Positions 10,375-19,197 of a stretch of DNA of 38,200 nt are shown piece after piece. The stretch lies in sequence record MN850588.1; one strand, given 5' to 3'. Source of the stretch: Escherichia phage sortregn. A model generated the notes under the pieces. It saw only the letters and a program-made list of their open reading frames with translations. It was not told the origin of the DNA and searched no databases. Every line of letters starts with the position of its first letter. Positions within the stretch are counted from its first letter, which is position 1. A program made the translations under genes and the position numbers.

Positions 10375-10472
10375 TGGAGGGATCCCTTTTAACAAGTGAG
10401 TGAACGCTAAAAGGGTAGCATGTGGAATCAAGGGCCGCAAAGCCCCTTTTCAGATGAAAGGTTAAGTAATTG

Positions 10473-10784
10473 TTATTTGCCGGAAAGAAGGCGCAAGGCG
10501 TCCATAGGAGACTCCGCCCCGGCTAACTGTTTAGCGAAGCCCTCCGCCGCCTGGCGCAGCTTGTCCACGTCCTCGAAGCCGCGATCGCGAGCCGCTTCCG
10601 CTTCGGTGTAGGCCGCTTCCCCGTCCATCGCCTGATCGTCCGGGTGGAACACCAGGTTAAACGACAATTCCGCGCCCTGGATCTCAGTGACCAGGCAGAT
10701 CGCCGGATTGTCGTCCGAGTCCTCGCCTTTGCGGACCAGAACCTGGCGATCGTGTGCTTCAAATAAGTGTGCGAAACGTTCCAT
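10473..10784 (-). CDS. hypothetical acidic protein
   Basis: ORF 10473..10889 with start moved to ATG 10784 after AAGAGG. Confidence 0.45.
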   Translation of the reverse strand: MERFAHLFEAHDRQVLVRKGEDSDDNPAICLVTEIQGAELSFNLVFHPDDQAMDGEAAYTEAEAARDRGFEDVDKLRQAAEGFAKQLAGAESPMDALRLLSGK

Positions 10785-10789
10785 AATAT

Positions 10790-11026
10790 TTACCTCTTGC
10801 CTTTGACCTGGAGCCGCTGACGACGGCCCCGCGTTTTGTTGTTGTACTCCTCGTGGGACAGTAGATCCCACGTTTCCCCCTCGTCCCACGTCACGAGCCG
10901 CCAGCTATAGCCCACGTTGAACGCTAACACCTTGCCGAAACCCCGGAGGCGCTTCGGTGACAACTCCCGCGCATAGTACCGCGCCAGAATGTCGTCGGCC
11001 TTCCGCTGGACCTTCTCCGGGATCAT
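10790..11026 (-). CDS. hypothetical basic protein
   Basis: 78 aa ORF, ATG start, overlaps next gene. Confidence 0.45.
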   Translation of the reverse strand: MIPEKVQRKADDILARYYARELSPKRLRGFGKVLAFNVGYSWRLVTWDEGETWDLLSHEEYNNKTRGRRQRLQVKGKR

Positions 11027-11766: not shown

Positions 11767-12420
11767 TTAGCAATTCGTGCTATTCGGATAAAGATACTCG
11801 CTCAACCGGGCCACCAGCGGCTCGTCTGGACCGAACTCAAACAGCCCGCCGTCGTTCTTGATCGAGTGGTGGATCTCCGCCAGTAACGTCTCCGCCCGCT
11901 GGAGCCTGGACGCCGCCGCGTTATCATGCCCGATCAGCTTCGTGATCTCCTCCTCCAGATCAGCGCCGAGCGCCGACGTCGCCCAGTGTTCGGCATACTC
12001 GCGATCCTTCAACAACCGGATCAGGGCCAACACGTCCGACTCGATACCGACAGTCGGGCCAGGCTGGAGCCGTGGCTGGATCTCGTCGAGCGTCTGCTGG
12101 GTAGCGTTCAACGTCCGGCGGATCTTGTCCTGTTCGGCCTTGCTCAGGTCCAGGATCAGCGGCGAAGCCGGGAGGCCATTTAACCAGGCGATCAGGTCGT
12201 CGTAAGGCATGACGGAATAAGCCTTCTCCGACGCGTACCCGGTGATCCGCCAGTCAGTGGTCGAACTGTACGCCTCGGAAATATCATCCTCCCGCAATTC
12301 GCGATAGACGATCTCAGCGCGACCGTTGTCGATCTTGCTCAGGCTCTCGATCAGCGTCTCCGGGATGTGGATCACTTCTTCGCCATTCTTAACGGCGGTT
12401 ACTGCGACATATCTGATCAT
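11767..12420 (-). CDS. hypothetical protein
   Basis: ORF 11767..12447 with start moved to ATG 12420 (GAGGAAAGAGAG upstream, ATGA overlap with upstream gene). Confidence 0.5.
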   Translation of the reverse strand: MIRYVAVTAVKNGEEVIHIPETLIESLSKIDNGRAEIVYRELREDDISEAYSSTTDWRITGYASEKAYSVMPYDDLIAWLNGLPASPLILDLSKAEQDKIRRTLNATQQTLDEIQPRLQPGPTVGIESDVLALIRLLKDREYAEHWATSALGADLEEEITKLIGHDNAAASRLQRAETLLAEIHHSIKNDGGLFEFGPDEPLVARLSEYLYPNSTNC

Positions 12421-12851
12421 CTCTCTTTCCTCATGGCTTGTTTGCATTGTAAAGCGGCGAGGGCCATCTCCGGGCCAATCTCGACGCCTGGGGGGAACCC
12501 TGTTTCCGTGGTCGCCAGCTTCGAACGATCCACCTTAAGGTCCCGTAATTGTCCGGCCCGTTCCATTTGTCCGGCGTGTCGGCAGAGATCCAGCAGCTTC
12601 TTACGATCGACGCCGGGGCAGTCCCAGAACGCCGCGAATATTTGCTCCGATGGTCGCAGGGCGCAAAAAGCATTGCGCGTTTCAACCGTCGGCAGATAAG
12701 GATCCATTCTCCCCTGTTCTATCGCCTCAATGATCGAGGGATCGGTGGAGCGGATCTTCTCCAGAATCTCCAGGCGGCGCTCCATTGCCGTCTTGCGTTT
12801 AACCGTGGCCCGAAGTGGGGCGGCAGGTTTTGAATCATCAAACAGTGACAT
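12417..12851 (-). CDS. hypothetical protein, first gene of leftward operon
   Basis: ORF 12417..12977 with start moved to ATG 12851 after GGAGGG. Confidence 0.5.
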   Translation of the reverse strand: MSLFDDSKPAAPLRATVKRKTAMERRLEILEKIRSTDPSIIEAIEQGRMDPYLPTVETRNAFCALRPSEQIFAAFWDCPGVDRKKLLDLCRHAGQMERAGQLRDLKVDRSKLATTETGFPPGVEIGPEMALAALQCKQAMRKER

Positions 12852-12991
12852 ATTGCCCTCCGTTGTGTGGAAATCAATATTACATAACGTTACCATGATG
12901 TAAAGCCCAACCGTGATAATAATTGACTTTACAGTGGTAACAAGGGCGGGTAACATTGCGACCAGTAACGCAACCATGAGGTGATTAAACA
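12852..12991. promoter_or_regulatory. divergent promoter/operator region with GGTAAC repeats
   Basis: 140-bp intergenic region between divergent operons; GGTAAC at 12936-41 and 12949-54, AGTAAC at 12964-69, GTTACC at 12888-93; sigma70-like hexamers TTGACT 12923-28 and GATAAT 12914-19. Confidence 0.45.
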
Positions 12992-14656: not shown

Positions 14657-14911
14657 CCGGGGCGTGTGTTGGTAACGAGTAACACCCCCCCTTATAGGGG
14701 GGGATGTAACGTGTTACCGCAACCCACAAGGCCGAAAACATAGTTTTTTATGTGTACTGTTACCGACAAGCGACCGTAATCAAATCAATCATTTATGTGT
14801 GATTCGGTAACGGGGAAAGTAGCGAATCGGTCGCGGGGAAATCGGGGGGTAAAAATCGGGGGTGACCCCCGACAAAATCCCCGCCAAATAATCATTGATA
14901 AGTGATGCGAA
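14657..14911. promoter_or_regulatory. repeat-rich non-coding region, candidate replication origin/regulatory region
   Basis: 255 bp non-coding after replicative ATPase gene: C7-TTATA-G7 hairpin 14685-14703, six (G/A/T)GTAAC sites, TTATGTGT twice, three AAATCGGGG-like repeats, GGGGG-TGA-CCCCC palindrome. Confidence 0.4.
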
Positions 14912-15100
14912 ATGAGCGACGATAACAACGTTATTTTATTCCCCAGACGGACACCGATCGGAGAGGTTCAACCAGTACGATCGAACGTCTGGATCGAGCG
15001 CTTCGGAATGTGGAATTACTTCCTGATGGTAGCGACAACCATCGGCGCGATCGTGGTCGGACTGGCGGCGATCGTGTTTAACATGCTGGGCCTGATGTGA
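14912..15100 (+). CDS. small membrane protein
   Basis: 62 aa ORF with one C-terminal hydrophobic helix. Confidence 0.4.
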   Translation: MSDDNNVILFPRRTPIGEVQPVRSNVWIERFGMWNYFLMVATTIGAIVVGLAAIVFNMLGLM

Positions 15101-15328
15101 GGCCCGTCACGACGACGAGGAAACGAGGAGATGATGATGAATGACGAACACGGCAAGAAATCCAACGTAGCGGACGTCTCGCATATGTATGTAGGCCCGA
15201 ACCAACGCGCCTCACTGCTGGAGAAGGCGTTCGAGATGTTCAGAGCGGCGGCGTCGTGATCCTGGACTCGTCCGTGGTCGAATGGTCCGAAGTGGAGGCA
15301 TACCGCCCGGCAAAGTGAGGGCCGGGAC

Positions 15329-15339
15329 CTGGGGGGATC
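15329..15339 (+). repeat. CTGGGGGGATC 11-mer copy
   Basis: Exact match, third reading frame relative to codons (T-W-G-D-R in track ORF). Confidence 0.8.
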
Positions 15340-15425
15340 GCCAGGCGGAGCGGCCTCCCTACTACGTGCAGATCAATAACCGCGTAGTGACCCCGGCGGA
15401 GTTCCACCGCCAGAAGCAGGAATTT

Positions 15426-15554
15426 ATGAGGGGCGCGGTGATTGTAGTCCCACCGGACGAACCAACGTTCCCGATCGGCGAGATATGTCGCGGGATCCTG
15501 ATGATGTTCGGGCTATTCGCCCTGCTGTGGTTCGTGCTTACCTTCTTAAGATAA
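15426..15554 (+). CDS. possible small membrane protein (42 aa)
   Basis: Internal ATG of ORF 15282..15554 preceded by AGGA; hydrophobic C-terminus; start uncertain. Confidence 0.3.
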   Translation: MRGAVIVVPPDEPTFPIGEICRGILMMFGLFALLWFVLTFLR

Positions 15555-15619
15555 CGCTTGCATGATGTACGCCCCGGCGATATGCTGGGGCCGTTTCCAC
15601 CCACGAGAGAGATCGAACA

Positions 15620-16258
15620 ATGTCAATATTCACTTTCATTAATCGCAAACTGGGCCGTTTCAAGACGTGCCGGACCTGCAAGGATAAGCACCCTTGCGGC
15701 TTCGGGGAATGGCCTTCGATGTTCTTCATGTGCGACAAGTGCCAGAACAAGACGCTGGAGGAGCTATTCGAACCGGGACGCCTTAACCGCCTGACGATGG
15801 TCCACCAGACGGAGGAACAGATGGCAGAGTCCCGCCGCCGTCTGGGGCCGTTGATCGACAGCCTGGTGAGCCAGCAGCGCCAGAGCAAACAAACCGCAGC
15901 CCAGACCCAGGCAGCGAAGGCCGCGCAGTATCGCGACCCGCGATCGGTGGCAATGGCCCGCCAGATGGCGCACGACCCACGCCCGGCGGCTCGTGGTACG
16001 CAGCAGGATCCGATCTCGGACCCGATGCACCTCCTCAACCCGTTAAACCCGCTCTCCCCAGTGTCTCCGCTCAACCCGCTGAACGACTGGGACGACAGCA
16101 GCCACCGCCACCACGTCGCGCCAGCCATGAGCGAGCCGACGGAATGCCACACCACCAGCCACTCCTCCGGCTATGAGTCCAGCAGCAGCGACTACAGCAG
16201 CAGCAGCTACGACAGCGGGAGCGACTCCTCCAGCTACTCGTCCGGGGGCTGTGACTGA
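15620..16258 (+). CDS. zinc-ribbon protein with Pro/Leu repeats and Ser/Tyr/Asp-rich C-terminal tail
   Basis: CRTCKDK...CDKCQNK four-cysteine ribbon; LNPLNPLSPVSPLNPLN; tail SSSSDYSSSSYDSGSDSSSYSS encoded by short AGC repeats. Confidence 0.55.
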   Translation: MSIFTFINRKLGRFKTCRTCKDKHPCGFGEWPSMFFMCDKCQNKTLEELFEPGRLNRLTMVHQTEEQMAESRRRLGPLIDSLVSQQRQSKQTAAQTQAAKAAQYRDPRSVAMARQMAHDPRPAARGTQQDPISDPMHLLNPLNPLSPVSPLNPLNDWDDSSHRHHVAPAMSEPTECHTTSHSSGYESSSSDYSSSSYDSGSDSSSYSSGGCD

Positions 16259-16554
16259 TGGCGATGGACAAGGACCGCAGGGTGGGCCGCACGAAGGCGG
16301 AAGCGCAACTCCTGAAACTCAAGCTGTACAAGGGGCCGGAGTGCAAGGTCCACGGCGGGAACTTCACCCGGTACACGTCAAACGGCGCTTGTGTGCTGTG
16401 CCGTAAGCTGGAGGCCGACACGACGAAGGGCAAGAGCCGGGGCTATATCGCCAAGAAGCGCGACACGCTGGCGTTTAATCACCCGGTTTCACCCTGGCCC
16501 ATAACCGCCGAGAATATGCACCTGTGCCCGGATCTCTCGTTCAAGCGAACTTGA
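16258..16554 (+). CDS. zinc-ribbon protein
   Basis: 98 aa; CKVHGG...CVLCRK four-cysteine motif; ATG overlaps previous stop. Confidence 0.5.
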   Translation: MAMDKDRRVGRTKAEAQLLKLKLYKGPECKVHGGNFTRYTSNGACVLCRKLEADTTKGKSRGYIAKKRDTLAFNHPVSPWPITAENMHLCPDLSFKRT

Positions 16555-16630
16555 TCACGCTTCCGTAACCGCCGATAATCCTCCGCGTAACCCTGTGACA
16601 CTCAGGCGATAAACGGAGGATTTTTTCATC
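16501..16630 (+). promoter_or_regulatory. candidate late-operon control region upstream of terS
   Basis: Direct repeat ATAACCGCCGAGAAT (16501) / GTAACCGCCGATAAT (16565), third CGTAACCC at 16586, GATAAT hexamer 16574-79. Confidence 0.35.
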
Positions 16631-17185
16631 ATGGCAAACGAACAGAACCTTAAGAAGGGGAACCGCTTCTCCAAAGAGAACCAGCCGGAGCGACGCGGCA
16701 GGGCGAAGCAGAACCGGACGTTACTCCTCGAAGCACTCCGCAAGGTTCGGATCAAGGAGGCCACCGGGCGCAAGGTCGAGGACATCGATCCAAACACTGG
16801 CGAGGTGAAGGTGAACAGCGAAACGGGCGAGCCGATCATGGTGGACGAGTTCGTGGAGGTCCCGCTCACGGAGGACATGTTCATCCAGCGAGCGATCCAG
16901 ATGGCCCTCGTAGACGGTTCCATGATGCGCGACATCATGAGCCGATTAATCCCCTACACCAAGCCGACCAGCCCGACCTATTGCTTTGAACTGACCGGAT
17001 CCACCCCGTCCGAGCGTATCACCGAGATCGAGGACCTGGTGGCAGCGGGAGAGCTTCCGTTCGACGCGGCGGAGTCTATGGTGAAGATGATCCGCCACGG
17101 CGCGGAAGTGTTCGAAATGTCCGAAATGGTCAAACGACTGGACGCACTGGAGGCCCGACTGAATGGCGAAGCCAAAGACGAATAA
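16631..17185 (+). CDS. terminase small subunit (P22 gp3-like)
   Basis: N-terminal KKGNRF motif as in P22 gp3; GGAGGA SD; upstream of TerL. Confidence 0.55.
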   Translation: MANEQNLKKGNRFSKENQPERRGRAKQNRTLLLEALRKVRIKEATGRKVEDIDPNTGEVKVNSETGEPIMVDEFVEVPLTEDMFIQRAIQMALVDGSMMRDIMSRLIPYTKPTSPTYCFELTGSTPSERITEIEDLVAAGELPFDAAESMVKMIRHGAEVFEMSEMVKRLDALEARLNGEAKDE

Positions 17186-17597
17186 ACTCCCGCCGGACAC
17201 TTACGGCAGACTGGAGGCGCTGGGCCTGAAATGGTTCACCGCCTCCCCTTACCCTTATTTCATCGTGTGCTTTGACCCGCAGGACGAGGAGATGGTGGCG
17301 AAGCTGGGCGAATGCTTCCCGGACTGGAACCGCGAGAAGCCGATCCAGCAAGGCGTCGCCATTGAGTACCACGCCGCCGACGTTAAGCTGGTGTTCGTAG
17401 GCGTCCGCCGGGGCCAATACTGGCGGACGACCATCGTCCACGAGATCGTCCACGTTAAGAACTACATCGGCGACACGCTGGGGATCGAGTGGGACGTGAA
17501 CAACGACGAGCCGGAGGCTTACTTCGTGGGCTGGCTGTTTAACATGATGGAGCAAACCTTCCAGGATCTGGGCTATGGCAAAAAATCGAAAGGATAA
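17163..17597 (+). CDS. hypothetical protein with HExxH motif (possible zincin-like)
   Basis: 144 aa ORF between TerS and TerL; HEIVH followed by acidic EPEAYF. Confidence 0.45.
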   Translation: MAKPKTNKLPPDTYGRLEALGLKWFTASPYPYFIVCFDPQDEEMVAKLGECFPDWNREKPIQQGVAIEYHAADVKLVFVGVRRGQYWRTTIVHEIVHVKNYIGDTLGIEWDVNNDEPEAYFVGWLFNMMEQTFQDLGYGKKSKG

Positions 17598-19197
17598 CCT
17601 CGCACGACTGGCCCGACTGGAGGGCCGGGCGTCTTACGTGGCCCGCGATGGTGGCCTGGTGTATGGCGTTTATGAGCCGGACGGGACCAGCGCCAAGCAC
17701 TGCTACAACATGAAGAAGGTTAACGGCGAATGGGTGTACACCTCCGAGCCGCACGACATCACGATCGCGGAGTGTCTGACCCCGATCCTCCTCCGTCCGA
17801 AGCGCTTTATTATCCTGGTCGGCGGGCGTGGCTCCGGGAAGTCGCTCACCGTCGGCGGGATCATCGACGCAGACGCCCACGACGAGGCGGCGAGCGCGAT
17901 GTGTCTCCGCGAATACCAGGCATCGATCAAGGATTCAGTCCACCCGCTCCTCGTCAACCGGATCGAGGAGTACGGTCTGGACGGCTTCGAGATCCTGGAG
18001 AAGGAGATCCGCCACACCAACGGCGCGATCATCCGTTTTAAGGGGATGGCGAGGGACCCAGCGGGCGTAAAATCCGCGTTCGGCTTCCGTCGCTTCTGGG
18101 GCGAGGAGGCGCAGACCTTTTCCGCCGAGTCTCTCCGCCAGTTAACGCCAACGATGCGCGAAACGGGCGGTATTATGCTGTTCACGGCGAACCCCGGCTC
18201 CAGTGAGGACGCATTCAGTCAGAGATTCCTGATCCCATTCTGGGAGGATCTCCAGCGGGACGGCATCTACGAGGACGATCTCCACCTGATAATCCGCGTC
18301 AACTGGTCGGATAACCCCTGGTTCCCCCCAGAGCTTCGATCGGAGATGGAGTTCGACCGCCAGACGCTTTCAAAGGCGCTATTCGATCACGTATGGGAAG
18401 GCCATTTTAATGACAGTGTGCCGGATGCCATTATCCCGGCGGAATGGTTCGACGCGGCGATCGACGCCCACAAGAAACTCGGATTCAAGCCGACCGGGAT
18501 CAGGATCGGCGCACTCGACCCGGCGGACGTCGGGGCGGATAACAAGGCTTACGGCGAGCGTTACGGCTCCGTGGTCACGCATATGGAGGAATGGTTCGAA
18601 GGTGACGCGAACGACTCCGTAGACAAGGCGATCAACACGGCGAAGGACCACGGGATCGAGGCGTTCGTGTGGGACCGCGCCGGACTGGGCGCTGGCTTGC
18701 GCCGCCAGGTCACGGAGGCTTACGCCGGGACGAAGGTCCTCGTAGACGGTTACAACGCCGGGGACGGCGTGAAGCACCCTGACAACCCTGTGGAGCTTGA
18801 TCACTGGCTGAACAACAAGGCCAGCGGGAACAATATCCAGAAGAACGCCGACGCGTTCGCGAACCGTGGCTCCCAGGACATCTACCTGTTACGGAAGCGC
18901 TTCGAAAGGACTTACGAGGCCGTGGTGAAGGGCGTATATCACAACCCGGACGAACTGATCGCGCTGGACAGCGAGGGGATCGGGGAGCATATGACCAAAC
19001 TCAGGGCGGAAGTGTGCCGTATTCCGCGCATTTACAACACCAACGGGAAATTTGCTAGGATGCCTAAGCCGCAGATGCGGACCAAACTCAAAATGAAGTC
19101 GCCGGGGATGGCTGACGTGCTTTGCATGTTGATGCAGCCGCCGGAGACGGTGAAAGACGAAGATTATTCCGGCTATAATGTGCCGAGCAACCGCTAA
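17575..19197 (+). CDS. terminase large subunit
   Basis: 540 aa; Walker A ILVGGRGSGKS, acidic nuclease-type C-terminal half; precedes portal. Confidence 0.85.
   Translation: MAKNRKDNLARLARLEGRASYVARDGGLVYGVYEPDGTSAKHCYNMKKVNGEWVYTSEPHDITIAECLTPILLRPKRFIILVGGRGSGKSLTVGGIIDADAHDEAASAMCLREYQASIKDSVHPLLVNRIEEYGLDGFEILEKEIRHTNGAIIRFKGMARDPAGVKSAFGFRRFWGEEAQTFSAESLRQLTPTMRETGGIMLFTANPGSSEDAFSQRFLIPFWEDLQRDGIYEDDLHLIIRVNWSDNPWFPPELRSEMEFDRQTLSKALFDHVWEGHFNDSVPDAIIPAEWFDAAIDAHKKLGFKPTGIRIGALDPADVGADNKAYGERYGSVVTHMEEWFEGDANDSVDKAINTAKDHGIEAFVWDRAGLGAGLRRQVTEAYAGTKVLVDGYNAGDGVKHPDNPVELDHWLNNKASGNNIQKNADAFANRGSQDIYLLRKRFERTYEAVVKGVYHNPDELIALDSEGIGEHMTKLRAEVCRIPRIYNTNGKFARMPKPQMRTKLKMKSPGMADVLCMLMQPPETVKDEDYSGYNVPSNR

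What the first reader, a model, noticed from the sequence alone, without database searches (positions are those of the whole stretch)
15620..16554. Pair of zinc-ribbon proteins, one with repetitive Pro/Leu and Ser/Tyr/Asp-rich tail
The 212-aa protein has a four-cysteine ribbon, an LNPLNPLSPVSPLNPLN repeat and a C-terminal SSSSDYSSSSYDSGSDSSSYSS tail encoded by short (AGC)n runs (16181-16206). Such tails are uncommon in phage proteins and could be slippage-prone. The adjacent 98-aa protein also has a four-cysteine ribbon. Their position just upstream of the late operon suggests regulatory roles.
Basis: partly seen in the sequence, partly recalled or inferred. Interest (0 to 1): 0.5.

Follow-up and report, generated by a model that had tools for sequence, protein, structure and literature searches.

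The report
Phage protein with conserved serine-rich tail
The two small genes are real, but the notable one is a phage protein whose odd proline motif and serine-rich tail define a large, undescribed family of small phage proteins of unknown function, while nothing links either protein to control of late transcription.

Summary
The window is Escherichia phage sortregn (Murrayvirus). Both ORFs exist as described: 15620-16258 (212 aa) and 16258-16554 (98 aa), joined by a TGATG overlap and syntenic in ten related phages.

The 212-aa protein has four invariant Cys, an (L/V-N/S-P)x5 motif and a tail with 19 Ser in 49 residues. Its conserved core is the C-terminal module, not the zinc ribbon. The module is DPxHxLNPLNPLSPxSPLNP, then a His/Ser stretch, a near-invariant SSYDSGSS, and an Asp plus Cys/aromatic end. 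A profile search found this module in 476 protein clusters, always C-terminal, behind exchangeable N-termini (membrane helix, hydrophobic-basic start or zinc ribbon). All nine genomic contexts examined are phage DNA of unrelated types. Pfam, NCBIfam, PADLOC, PDB and the literature gave nothing; PHROG lists it as unknown.

AlphaFold predicts the tail as disordered. Tail length varies between species by in-frame indels but is identical in the closest relative.

The 98-aa protein has a C-x2-H-x12-C-x2-C knuckle, not four Cys, of a phage module of unknown function.

A conserved promoter-like site and a hairpin covering the ribosome-binding site follow the pair, so the position claim holds. A regulatory role is unsupported. 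My best guess is a tethered, disordered host-binding accessory protein.

The parts
15620..16258 (+). 212-aa ORF (sortregn_28), a member of the NPLNPLSP / Ser-rich-tail family
   Evidence: ORF list. A 100% match to sortregn_28. Orthologues in 7 phages. PHROG 14209, unknown function, E=2.3e-5.
15626..15652 (+). N-terminal hydrophobic-basic start (IFTFINRKL within MSIFTFINRKLGRFK), the family-wide N-terminal signature
   Evidence: AlphaFold helix at residues 3-11. A similar 'M..F..F..K/R' start occurs in 68 of 137 family representatives, and 46 have a membrane helix instead. The amphipathic moment is not above shuffles.
15668..15742 (+). Four-Cys zinc ribbon (C17-x2-C20 ... C38-x2-C41), a lineage-specific exchangeable module
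   Evidence: The four Cys are invariant in 34 orthologues. pLDDT is 72-81. This region is highly divergent from Lumpael (pN 0.45). It is absent from orthologues P0091 and P0096 and from most of the family.
15812..15970 (+). Variable helical linker (residues 65-117)
   Evidence: AlphaFold helices 65-103 (pLDDT about 90) and 107-117. Its length and sequence vary among orthologues.
15956..16108 (+). Conserved core: AMARQMAHDPRPAARGTQQDPISDPMH + LLNPLNPLSPVSPLNPLN (16031-16084) + DWDDSSHR
   Evidence: Nearly invariant columns in A1, A5 and A7. pN/pS is 0.15-0.35 against the more divergent relatives. 124 of 137 family representatives carry the xNPxxP motif, and the longest run of xxP triplets is 3-6 in most.
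16109..16258 (+). Ser/Tyr/Asp/His-rich tail, predicted disordered, with two Cys, the SSYDSGS motif and a GGCD end
   Evidence: 19 Ser in 49 residues, P=1e-12. pLDDT below 50 for residues 146-202. S196, Y197, D198 and S199 are nearly invariant. The family module, counted from the start of the proline motif to the C-terminus, is 71 +/- 10 residues and 33.5% Ser with 0.2% Lys; 110 of 196 members have exactly two Cys in it.
16180..16216 (+). 18-nt tandem duplication (SSSSDY) built from AGC runs
   Evidence: Tandem Repeats Finder: period 18, 2.1 copies. The insertion is present only in the window, Lumpael and a few metagenomic orthologues.
16258..16554 (+). 98-aa ORF (sortregn_29): a CHCC zinc knuckle followed by a lineage-specific C-terminal half (HPVSPWPI...CPDLS)
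   Evidence: ORF list. PHROG 30250, E=2.6e-51. 34 invariant columns in 16 orthologues. Always follows the 212-aa gene.
16342..16401 (+). C29-x2-H32-x12-C45-x2-C48 knuckle (ECKVHGGNFTRYTSNGACVLC)
   Evidence: Invariant in orthologues. Shared with 63-151-aa phage proteins P0223-P0254 and with PHROGs 1081, 23777 and 15231, all of unknown function.
16551..16579 (+). Sigma-70 promoter-like site, TTGATC-17-GATAAT
   Evidence: Scan result, which is not above chance on its own. However, the hexamers and the 17-nt spacing are conserved in 9 phages while the spacer sequence varies.
16577..16626 (+). Hairpin: AAUCCUCCG paired with CGGAGGAUU (which contains the Shine-Dalgarno GGAGG at 16615-16619), followed by a T-run at 16621-16626
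   Evidence: Folding and the alignment fold. The stem is invariant and shows no covariation. The ribosome-binding site is paired only in RNA that starts upstream of about 16577.
16631..17185 (+). 184-aa ORF, the first gene of the packaging and structural operon (probable small terminase subunit)
   Evidence: Context only. PHROG 9747, unknown function. It precedes the large terminase subunit (17575-19197) and the portal gene.

Best explanation
What is shown. The 212-aa protein belongs to a large, so far undescribed family of small phage proteins (90-257 aa). The family is defined by a C-terminal module of about 70 residues. The module has four parts:
- a period-3 proline motif, [D]xLNPLNPLSPxSPLNP;
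- a His/Ser-rich stretch that usually holds a Cys;
- a near-invariant SSYDSGSS motif set in a Ser-rich, Lys-free, mildly acidic segment that is predicted to be disordered;
- an end made of Asp plus Cys or an aromatic residue.

The N-terminal part is exchangeable. It can be a membrane helix whose flanking charges place the tail in the cytoplasm, a hydrophobic-basic start, or, as here, that start followed by a four-Cys zinc ribbon and a long helix.

The 98-aa protein is a separate small protein. Its N-terminal half is a widespread phage C-x2-H-x12-C-x2-C zinc knuckle. Its C-terminal half is specific to the Murrayvirus/Sortsnevirus group.

The two genes are translationally coupled. They are the last genes of the helicase/replication-side transcription unit.

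What is inferred. The 212-aa protein most likely acts as a tethered, disordered accessory protein. Its two short conserved motifs would bind a broadly conserved cytoplasmic or membrane-proximal host component, while the N-terminal module only sets where the tail is held. The tail would evolve under a constraint on composition and length rather than on sequence, through in-frame slippage and recombination within the conserved motif-coding DNA. The 98-aa protein probably binds nucleic acid or a protein partner through its zinc knuckle. Its target is unknown.
For: Size and architecture of the family:
- A profile of 27 diverse members finds 476 clusters at E<=1e-3 and 127 at E<=1e-10. All are 90-257 aa and the module is always C-terminal.
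- 124 of 137 representatives have the proline motif and 110 of 137 have S[YF..]DSGS. 46 have a membrane helix, 68 a hydrophobic-basic start and 4 a zinc ribbon.
- The module is 71 +/- 10 residues long, while the N-terminal part ranges from 29 to 189 residues. Net charge averages +5 for the N-terminal part and -7 for the tail.

Structure and selection:
- AlphaFold gives a confident ribbon and helix but pLDDT below 50 for residues 124-141 and 146-202.
- The motif is under purifying selection (pN/pS 0.15-0.35 against the more divergent relatives), while the tail is relaxed (0.4-1.3) and carries indels.

Module exchange:
- The window has the Lumpael tail (0 differences) joined to a divergent N-terminus. 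P0002 has the window's N-terminus joined to another tail type.
- Orthologues P0091 and P0096 lack the ribbon.

Context:
- All nine contexts examined are phage DNA of unrelated types, with no conserved neighbour.

The 98-aa protein:
- Its ligand residues are invariant.
- Its N-terminal half recurs in 63-151-aa phage proteins.
- Synteny and start/stop overlap with the 212-aa gene hold in ten genomes.
Against: - No binding partner, localisation or phenotype is known for any member, so the mechanism is inference from architecture only.
- The hydrophobic moment of the non-membrane-helix N-termini is no higher than in shuffled sequences (0.443 against 0.439). Membrane association of that class is therefore not shown.
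- Low-complexity sequence inflates profile scores. Family size rests on the motif checks of the 137 newly found representatives among the 150 best hits, not on all 476.
- The AlphaFold model of the 98-aa protein is unusable (pLDDT 44).
- The conserved position of the pair immediately before a conserved promoter-like site and hairpin is equally compatible with a regulatory role for the 98-aa protein.
Confidence: 0.4

Rival explanations
1. Late-transcription control. One or both proteins, most plausibly the 98-aa zinc-knuckle protein, act at the conserved promoter/hairpin at 16551-16626. They would activate the promoter or allow read-through of the hairpin, analogous in position to lambda Q or P22 gp23 at PR'.
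For: - The pair is always the last pair of genes before a promoter-like site (TTGAT[C/A]-17-GA[T/C]AAT) and a hairpin with a T-run. Both elements are invariant in 9 phages while the spacer varies.
- The hairpin pairs the ribosome-binding site of the first packaging gene only in read-through RNA.
- Small relatives of the knuckle module sit first after long intergenic gaps in two other phages.
- Small zinc-binding phage proteins such as Q and Ogr/Delta are known late regulators (established knowledge).
Against: - Neither protein matches any antiterminator or activator family in Pfam, including the three Q families, Ogr/Delta and Mor, nor anything in NCBIfam or the PDB.
- The Ser-tail family occurs in many positions unrelated to late promoters. 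In lambdoid contigs it coexists with a genuine Q protein.
- The stem shows no covariation, and the promoter scan is at chance level for the region.
- The predicted promoter is close to consensus and may not need an activator.
Confidence: 0.2
2. A lysis-timing or membrane-process regulator. In this reading the protein is a cytoplasm-facing, membrane-tethered partner of a holin or another inner-membrane protein, comparable in role to T4 RIII or to antiholins.
For: - A third of the family has an N-terminal membrane helix with positive charges after it.
- Several members lie next to lysis genes. L021 and L022 have the gene between Q and the lysis cassette. L020 has it just after lysozyme and holin. 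In L011 it is flanked by small membrane proteins.
Against: - In the window and its relatives the lysis cassette lies on the other genome arm.
- Other members sit in replication modules.
- The sortregn protein has no membrane helix.
- There is no homology to any known lysis regulator.
Confidence: 0.1
3. A metal-binding tail. The His/Cys/Asp/Ser tail, together with the zinc ribbon, would sequester or deliver a metal ion, in the manner of the His/Cys-rich tails of SlyD or HypB.
For: - His-rich runs (HHHHHH, HSHSHSHD) precede the YDSGSS motif in many members. The module is 5.3% His, and 110 of 196 members have exactly two Cys in it, at a typical spacing.
Against: - 51 of 196 modules have no Cys, and some have no His.
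- Ser, the dominant residue, is a poor metal ligand.
- This idea does not account for the most conserved elements, the proline motif and YDSGSS.
Confidence: 0.08
4. A nucleic-acid or SSB-tail mimic. The acidic disordered tail with a terminal aromatic or Cys residue would compete for proteins that bind DNA or the SSB C-terminus, giving an anti-restriction or anti-repair effect.
For: - The tail carries net negative charge (mean -7), almost no Lys or Arg, and Asp plus an aromatic or Cys residue in the last three positions in most members.
- Several members lie in replication modules.
- Acidic disordered DNA mimics are known in phages, for example SPO1 Gp44 (PMC8208478, abstract).
Against: - Acidic residues make up only about 12% of the tail, far below known DNA mimics.
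- The phage's own SSB ends in the canonical DFDDDIPF, which the tail does not resemble.
- There are no PADLOC or anti-restriction family hits.
Confidence: 0.07
5. A slippage-prone contingency locus. The AGC runs would cause frequent changes in tail length that switch function on or off.
For: In-frame indels occur in the tail between species, and an 18-nt duplication is present.
Against: - The runs are only 3-4 units long, and all observed indels are in frame.
- The tail is identical to that of Lumpael, although the two genomes differ by about 1.5% over their aligned DNA.
- Module length is tightly constrained across the family, at 71 +/- 10 residues.
Confidence: 0.03

Closest known systems
PHROG 14209 (212-aa protein); PHROGs 30250, 1081, 23777 and 15231 (98-aa protein)
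   Same: Sequence-level membership. The 212-aa protein matches PHROG 14209 at E=2.3e-5, and the 98-aa protein matches PHROG 30250 at E=2.6e-51, with weaker hits to the other three.
   Different: All of these clusters are labelled 'unknown function'. No domain architecture, motif description or breadth has been published for them, as far as the libraries and the full-text search show.
Lambdoid Q antiterminators (lambda Q, 82 Q, 21 Q; P22 gp23)
   Same: Gene position. The pair is the last in an early operon, directly upstream of a promoter followed by a hairpin with a T-run and then the late genes. Q proteins are also small zinc-binding proteins (established knowledge).
   Different: There is no sequence or fold similarity. 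The hairpin starts inside the promoter rather than about 200 nt downstream. Lambdoid contigs that carry a Ser-tail family member also encode a real Q protein.
Small phage proteins that act through a tether plus a disordered or helical effector segment (lambda CIII, phi29 p16.7, T4 RIII; from established knowledge)
   Same: They are small early or accessory proteins, membrane-proximal or amphipathic at the N-terminus, and they work by binding a host or phage partner rather than by catalysis.
   Different: There is no homology. None of them has a period-3 proline motif or a Ser-rich tail. The comparison is functional only and was not tested here.
SSB C-terminal region (disordered linker with PxxP motifs plus an acidic tip ending in Phe)
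   Same: A proline-containing motif, a long low-complexity disordered segment and an acidic end with a hydrophobic or aromatic last residue.
   Different: The tip sequence differs: GGCD, SSFD or SSDW against DDDIPF. The phage's own SSB has the canonical tip. The family has no OB fold.
SPO1 Gp44-type acidic disordered DNA mimics
   Same: A phage early protein with an acidic disordered C-terminal region (PMC8208478, abstract).
   Different: The tail here is dominated by Ser (33.5%), with only about 12% acidic residues. It carries specific conserved motifs and shows no sequence relation to Gp44.

Membership tests
NPLNPLSP / Ser-rich-tail family (defined here from alignment A5) | Period-3 proline motif, [LIVM][NS]P repeated 3-6 times, preceded by Asp | tested here: met
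   Residues 138-155, LLNPLNPLSPVSPLNPLN, preceded by SDPMH. 124 of 137 representatives have the motif.
NPLNPLSP / Ser-rich-tail family (defined here from alignment A5) | S-[YF]-D-S-G-S motif within a Ser-rich, Lys-poor C-terminal module about 70 residues long | tested here: met
   SSSYDSGSD at residues 194-202. The module from the start of the proline motif to the C-terminus is 74 residues. Family values are 71 +/- 10 residues and 33.5% Ser.
NPLNPLSP / Ser-rich-tail family (defined here from alignment A5) | C-terminus made of Asp plus Cys or an aromatic residue | tested here: met
   The protein ends in GGCD. CD is the commonest ending in the family, in 30 of 137 representatives.
NPLNPLSP / Ser-rich-tail family (defined here from alignment A5) | N-terminal membrane helix or hydrophobic-basic start | tested here: inconclusive
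   MSIFTFINRKLGRFK fits the pattern and is predicted helical. However, the amphipathic moment of this class is not above shuffles, and most Murrayvirus orthologues start with MSIxRFK only.
Zinc ribbon (four-Cys), 212-aa protein | Two CxxC pairs, conserved, in a beta-hairpin knuckle arrangement | tested here: met
   C17, C20, C38 and C41 are invariant in 34 sequences. AlphaFold places strands at 14-16 and 23-25 with pLDDT 72-81. Metal binding itself cannot be tested with these tools.
   The conserved ligands are C29, H32, C45 and C48. The fourth Cys (C90) lies in a half that remote homologues lack.
Q-type antiterminators (Pfam Phage_antitermQ, Phage_antiter_Q, Antiterm) | Sequence match to one of the Q families | tested here: not met
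   No Pfam hit at E<=1 for either protein. No PDB or BFVD match.
Q-type antiterminators (Pfam Phage_antitermQ, Phage_antiter_Q, Antiterm) | A Q-binding element in the promoter, a sigma-dependent promoter-proximal pause, and read-through of downstream terminators | not testable with these tools
   Only a conserved promoter-like site and a hairpin can be seen. A -10-like GATAAA at 16609-16614 inside the hairpin was noted (read from the sequence) but not tested.
Ogr/Delta or Mor/C late activators | Match to zf-Ogr_Delta or Mor | tested here: not met
   No Pfam hit.
HNH / endonuclease VII nucleases (98-aa protein) | Beta-beta-alpha-metal catalytic motif (His-Asn-His) next to the zinc ligands | tested here: not met
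   No Pfam HNH or Endonuclease_7 hit. The only signal is a faint PHROG 1035 hit (E=0.008) for the remote relative P0243.
Intrinsic terminator (16577-16626) | GC-rich stem-loop immediately followed by a U-run | tested here: inconclusive
   A 9-bp outer stem, an inner CCUG/CAGG stem and U6-U8 are conserved in 9 phages. The loop and interior are long, the scanner did not call it, the z-score is -1.9, and there is no covariation.
SSB C-terminal tip mimic | Acidic tip of the D-D-D-I-P-F type | tested here: not met
   The tail ends in SSGGCD, while the phage's own SSB ends in DFDDDIPF.

The most novel reading that the evidence does not exclude
The C-terminal module (period-3 proline motif, Ser-rich disordered spacer, YDSGSS and an Asp/aromatic end) would be a new, widespread class of phage effector. 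It would be held at the membrane, or on a zinc-ribbon-bound partner, and would capture one universally conserved bacterial component through two short linear motifs. Unrelated phages would have spread and re-anchored it by module exchange. A second, independent point: in Murrayviruses the late operon would be insulated by a hairpin whose 5' arm overlaps the late promoter. Early read-through RNA would then terminate or hide the ribosome-binding site, while promoter-initiated RNA would be open.
Probability: 0.25. Interest if true: 0.7.

Novelty: categorically new. Interest (0 to 1): 0.45.

Why it matters
Phage genomes are full of small 'hypothetical' early proteins, and those characterised so far have often turned out to be precise inhibitors of central host machines. 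Here a single odd tail leads to a family of several hundred sequence clusters. The family has two sharply conserved short motifs in an otherwise disordered segment, and it is carried by Murrayviruses, lambdoid, Mu-like and about 90-kb phages from compositionally diverse hosts.

Conservation of that kind usually marks a binding interface to something the hosts share. Identifying the partner would assign a function to hundreds of unannotated genes and could reveal a new point of attack on bacteria.

The caveat is strong. No function is shown, and the 'new' label means only that the family matches nothing described. It does not mean a new mechanism has been demonstrated.

Tried and rejected
Searches that found nothing useful:
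- Pfam, NCBIfam and PADLOC scans of both proteins and of distant family members returned nothing above noise.
- PDB profile searches with A4 and A7 gave only chance hits at E>0.4.
- The AlphaFold model of the 98-aa protein had pLDDT 44 and was not used for fold search.
- Foldseek with the 212-aa model against PDB and BFVD returned only itself, its sortsyn orthologue and generic zinc-finger noise.
- Rfam found no family in the window.
- Full-text searches for the motif strings and for Murrayvirus phages found no description of these genes. The general search on serine-rich disordered phage proteins also found none, and it supplied only the SPO1 Gp44 comparison.
- A megablast of the Alux-21 family member against complete E. 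coli genomes gave no match.

Ideas tested and dropped:
- A conserved partner gene for the Ser-tail family. The 130-aa genes downstream in L007 and L009 are unrelated to each other, as are the neighbours in L010 and L011. The zinc-ribbon gene after the L022 member looks like a Lar-type restriction-alleviation protein on my reading of its sequence, a recollection that was not tested, and its cysteine pattern is CxxC rather than the knuckle of the 98-aa protein.
- An amphipathic N-terminal helix. The hydrophobic moment equals that of shuffles.
- An SSB-tip mimic. The phage SSB has the canonical tip and the tail does not.
- A precursor of a ribosomally made, modified peptide. These 38-42-kb genomes encode no modification enzymes, and the module is only 2.3% Cys.
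- A spanin. There is no lipobox, and the topology places the tail in the cytoplasm.
- Other long ORFs over the tail, such as 16071-16433 on the minus strand and 16173-16406 on the plus strand. I treated these as by-products of GC-rich repeats and did not test them further.
Full report
**Identity of the window**

The 212-aa product is 100% identical to 'hypothetical protein sortregn_28 [Escherichia phage sortregn]', found on a 38,200-bp contig. The window is about 98.5% identical to Salmonella phage Lumpael over 85% of its first 17.6 kb. It is related to IME_EC2, sortsyn, ST231, KMB41 (all Murrayvirus) and Sortsne (Sortsnevirus). These phages have P22-like packaging and structural genes.

**Check of the observation**

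- 15620-16258 on the + strand, 212 aa;
- 16258-16554 on the + strand, 98 aa, with stop and start sharing TGATG.

The tail holds 19 Ser in its last 49 residues, against 5.1% Ser in the phage proteome (P = 1e-12). No other protein of the window comes close. The AGC runs and an 18-nt tandem unit at 16180-16216 are real.

C17, C20, C38 and C41 are invariant in 34 orthologues. The 98-aa protein needs one correction. Its conserved ligands are C29, H32, C45 and C48. Its fourth Cys lies in a different, lineage-specific half.

**What the 212-aa protein is**

Alignment of orthologues shows five regions:
- a conserved ribbon;
- a highly variable helical middle;
- a nearly invariant stretch, AMARAMAQDPRPAARGTQQDPxSDPMHxLNPLNPLSPVSPLNPLNDWDxSSHR;
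- a compositionally conserved Ser/Tyr/Asp/His tail;
- an invariant GGCD end.

The database search gave the decisive result. Below about 35% identity, the hits keep only the C-terminal part and have entirely different N-termini. An alignment of 27 diverse members (A5) shows the shared module:
- [D]xLNPLNPLSPxSPLNP;
- a His-rich stretch;
- a near-invariant SSSYDSGSS;
- an end such as CD, FD, DF, DW or SY.

A profile of this alignment was searched against 1.84 billion representative proteins. It found 476 clusters at E<=1e-3 and 127 at E<=1e-10. All are 90-257 aa, and the match is always at the C-terminus.

Of the 150 best-scoring hits listed, 137 were new representatives, and I checked those:
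- 124 have the proline motif and 110 have the S[YF]DSGS motif;
- 46 start with a membrane helix followed by Arg/Lys, which places the tail in the cytoplasm by the positive-inside rule (an inference);
- 68 start with a hydrophobic-basic peptide such as MFGWLFGRKK;
- 4 have a zinc ribbon.

The module is 71 +/- 10 residues long, while the N-terminal part ranges from 29 to 189 residues. The module is 33.5% Ser, 9.9% Asp, 9.4% Pro, 5.3% His, 4.3% Tyr and 0.2% Lys. Exactly two Cys occur in 110 of 196 modules.

AlphaFold gives these features for the sortregn protein:
- a short N-terminal helix;
- a ribbon at pLDDT 72-81;
- a long helix (residues 65-103) at pLDDT about 90;
- no confident structure for residues 124-141 and 146-202.

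**The ribbon is an exchangeable anchor**

The gene is a mosaic. Against Lumpael, the tail has 0 differences and the motif region one, while the ribbon region differs at pN 0.45 and pS 0.65. P0002 combines the window's N-terminus with a different tail type. Orthologues from Sortsnevirus-like phages (P0091, P0096) have no ribbon at all, and unrelated ribbons occur in a few distant members (P0053, P0172, P0189). The window's own start, MSIFTFINRKLGRFK, resembles the family-wide hydrophobic-basic start.

**Tail variation**

Between species the tail differs by in-frame indels and has a relaxed pN/pS of 0.4-1.3. The motif region gives 0.15-0.35 against the more divergent relatives. Between the two closest genomes the tail is identical. 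This pattern fits slow slippage and recombination under a constraint on composition and length. It does not fit a hypervariable switch.

**Genomic contexts**

All nine contexts examined carry phage hallmark genes but share no neighbour:

| Locus | Phage type | Position of the family member |
|---|---|---|
| L007 | ~93-kb phage | stand-alone gene with its own terminator |
| L009 | ~93-kb phage | no shared neighbour |
| L010 | 81-kb contig | directly after DNA polymerase A |
| L011 | 61-kb contig | flanked by small membrane proteins |
| L013 | E. coli phage Alux-21 | between two primase genes; the 115-aa member is unannotated |
| L020 | Mu-like | between the lysis genes and the large terminase subunit |
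| L021, L022 | lambdoid | just after a genuine Q antiterminator and before the lysis genes |
| window | Murrayvirus | after the helicase and small genes, before the packaging genes |

This is the behaviour of a mobile accessory gene. It is not that of a fixed component of late-gene control.

**The 98-aa protein**

It is highly conserved, with 34 invariant columns. The full-length protein is confined to the Murrayvirus/Sortsnevirus group.

Its N-terminal half (A..A..G...Y.G..C..H....RYTSNGACV.C) recurs in stand-alone proteins of 63-87 aa and in tandem 151-aa proteins. It corresponds to PHROGs 1081, 23777 and 15231, all of unknown function. In two other phage regions these small relatives are the first gene after a long intergenic gap. 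That is compatible with a DNA-binding role but is thin evidence. The AlphaFold model was poor, with pLDDT 44.

**The boundary downstream of the pair**

The 77-nt gap at 16555-16630 is strikingly conserved:
- TTGAT(C/A) and GA(T/C)AAT, 17 nt apart, are kept in nine phages while the spacer diverges.
- The -10 element abuts the 5' arm (AAUCCUCCG) of a hairpin. The 3' arm (CGGAGGAUU) contains the Shine-Dalgarno sequence of the first packaging-side gene and is followed by a U-run.

RNA that reads through from upstream folds at -26.4 kcal/mol with the ribosome-binding site paired. RNA that starts at the predicted initiation site (about 16586) lacks the 5' arm and is unstructured.

This suggests an insulator between the replication-side operon and the late operon. 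The limits are clear. The promoter scan alone is at chance level. The stem shows no covariation. The z-score is only -1.9, and nothing was measured.

The inference that these two proteins are the regulators remains untested, and every profile search against regulator families was negative.

**Mechanism**

*Shown:*
- the family architecture;
- predicted disorder of the tail;
- purifying selection on the motif;
- module exchange;
- restriction to phage DNA in every context examined.

*Inferred:*
- The two conserved short motifs in a disordered, tethered segment form a binding interface to a conserved host component.
- The N-terminal module sets the location.

I put about 0.4 on this overall picture. 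Most of that weight rests on the family assignment rather than on the mechanism.

*Rivals:* late-transcription control by the 98-aa protein (0.2), lysis or membrane regulation (0.1), metal binding (0.08), a DNA or SSB-tail mimic (0.07) and a slippage switch (0.03).

**Novelty and score**

No curated library, solved structure or searchable paper describes the module. PHROGs only lists it as a cluster of unknown function. I therefore label it as not belonging to any known kind. This is a statement about the sequence family, not a demonstrated new mechanism. Interest is moderate at 0.45: the family is large, sharply defined and previously unnoticed, but its function is unknown and the original regulatory idea is unsupported.

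Noticed in passing
window 16551-16626: A conserved promoter-like site (TTGATC-17-GATAAT) has its -10 element abutting the 5' arm of a hairpin. The 3' arm of that hairpin contains the ribosome-binding site of the 184-aa ORF and is followed by a T-run. The hexamers and the stem are invariant in 9 phages while the spacer varies. Read-through RNA hides the ribosome-binding site, and RNA from the predicted start does not. The -35 hexamer in Murrayviruses contains a GATC (Dam) site, which is not kept in L017-L019.
   Followed up: partly
window 17163-17597 (+): A 144-aa ORF between the probable small and large terminase subunits carries an HEIVH (HExxH) motif. It has no Pfam hit and matches PHROG 1365 (unknown function). 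The gene is absent from the related phage in L018.
   Followed up: partly
window 15620-16258 compared with L003 (Lumpael) and P0002: There is a recombination breakpoint inside the gene. The 3' half is identical to Lumpael and the 5' ribbon region is highly divergent. A metagenomic relative has the reverse combination. The conserved motif-coding DNA probably serves as the homology patch.
   Followed up: yes
L013 3995-4342 (Escherichia phage Alux-21, PQ589898.1 positions 10444-10791): An unannotated 115-aa ORF is a clear family member (MGMFKRLLARLFGRKPK...LMNPLNPLSPVSPIY...GGCD). It lies between the primase-helicase gene and a 'DNA primase' gene.
   Followed up: yes
window 14657-15619, compared with Lumpael gp04-gp13: Between the 554-aa helicase/primase gene and the Ser-tail gene, Lumpael has about ten small genes, while sortregn has only a few small ORFs. 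The genome is about 3 kb shorter (38.2 kb against 41.1 kb). Two of the remaining ORFs (14912-15100 and 15282-15554) encode small proteins with a hydrophobic membrane-like segment.
   Followed up: no
proteins P0127, P0175, P0207 (family members from metagenomes): Three distant members carry an extra 15-20 residues after the Ser-rich tail, ending in ...RRTLAL, ...QRKLAL and ...GYALAL. This is reminiscent of an ssrA-like degradation tag.
   Followed up: no
proteins P0026, P0030 (Murrayvirus-like orthologues): In these two orthologues the LNPLNPLSP motif is replaced by an unrelated segment (DPVLAILTYDALTT), while the DWDSSSHR stretch and the tail are kept. I translated the window's motif-coding DNA by eye in the other two forward frames, without a tool call, and neither frame gives this sequence, so it is not a simple frameshift.
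   Followed up: partly
L022 7441-7773: In a lambdoid contig the Ser-tail gene is immediately followed by a 110-aa protein with two CxxC-type zinc ribbons. On my reading of the sequence it looks like a Lar-type restriction-alleviation protein, which I did not test. It shows no resemblance to the 98-aa protein, so the recurrence of a small zinc protein downstream looks coincidental.
   Followed up: partly
window 12870-12960: A cluster of divergent promoter-like sites lies between the minus-strand gene 12417-12977 and the plus-strand 554-aa helicase gene. It is the probable start of the transcription unit that ends with the two genes studied here.
   Followed up: no
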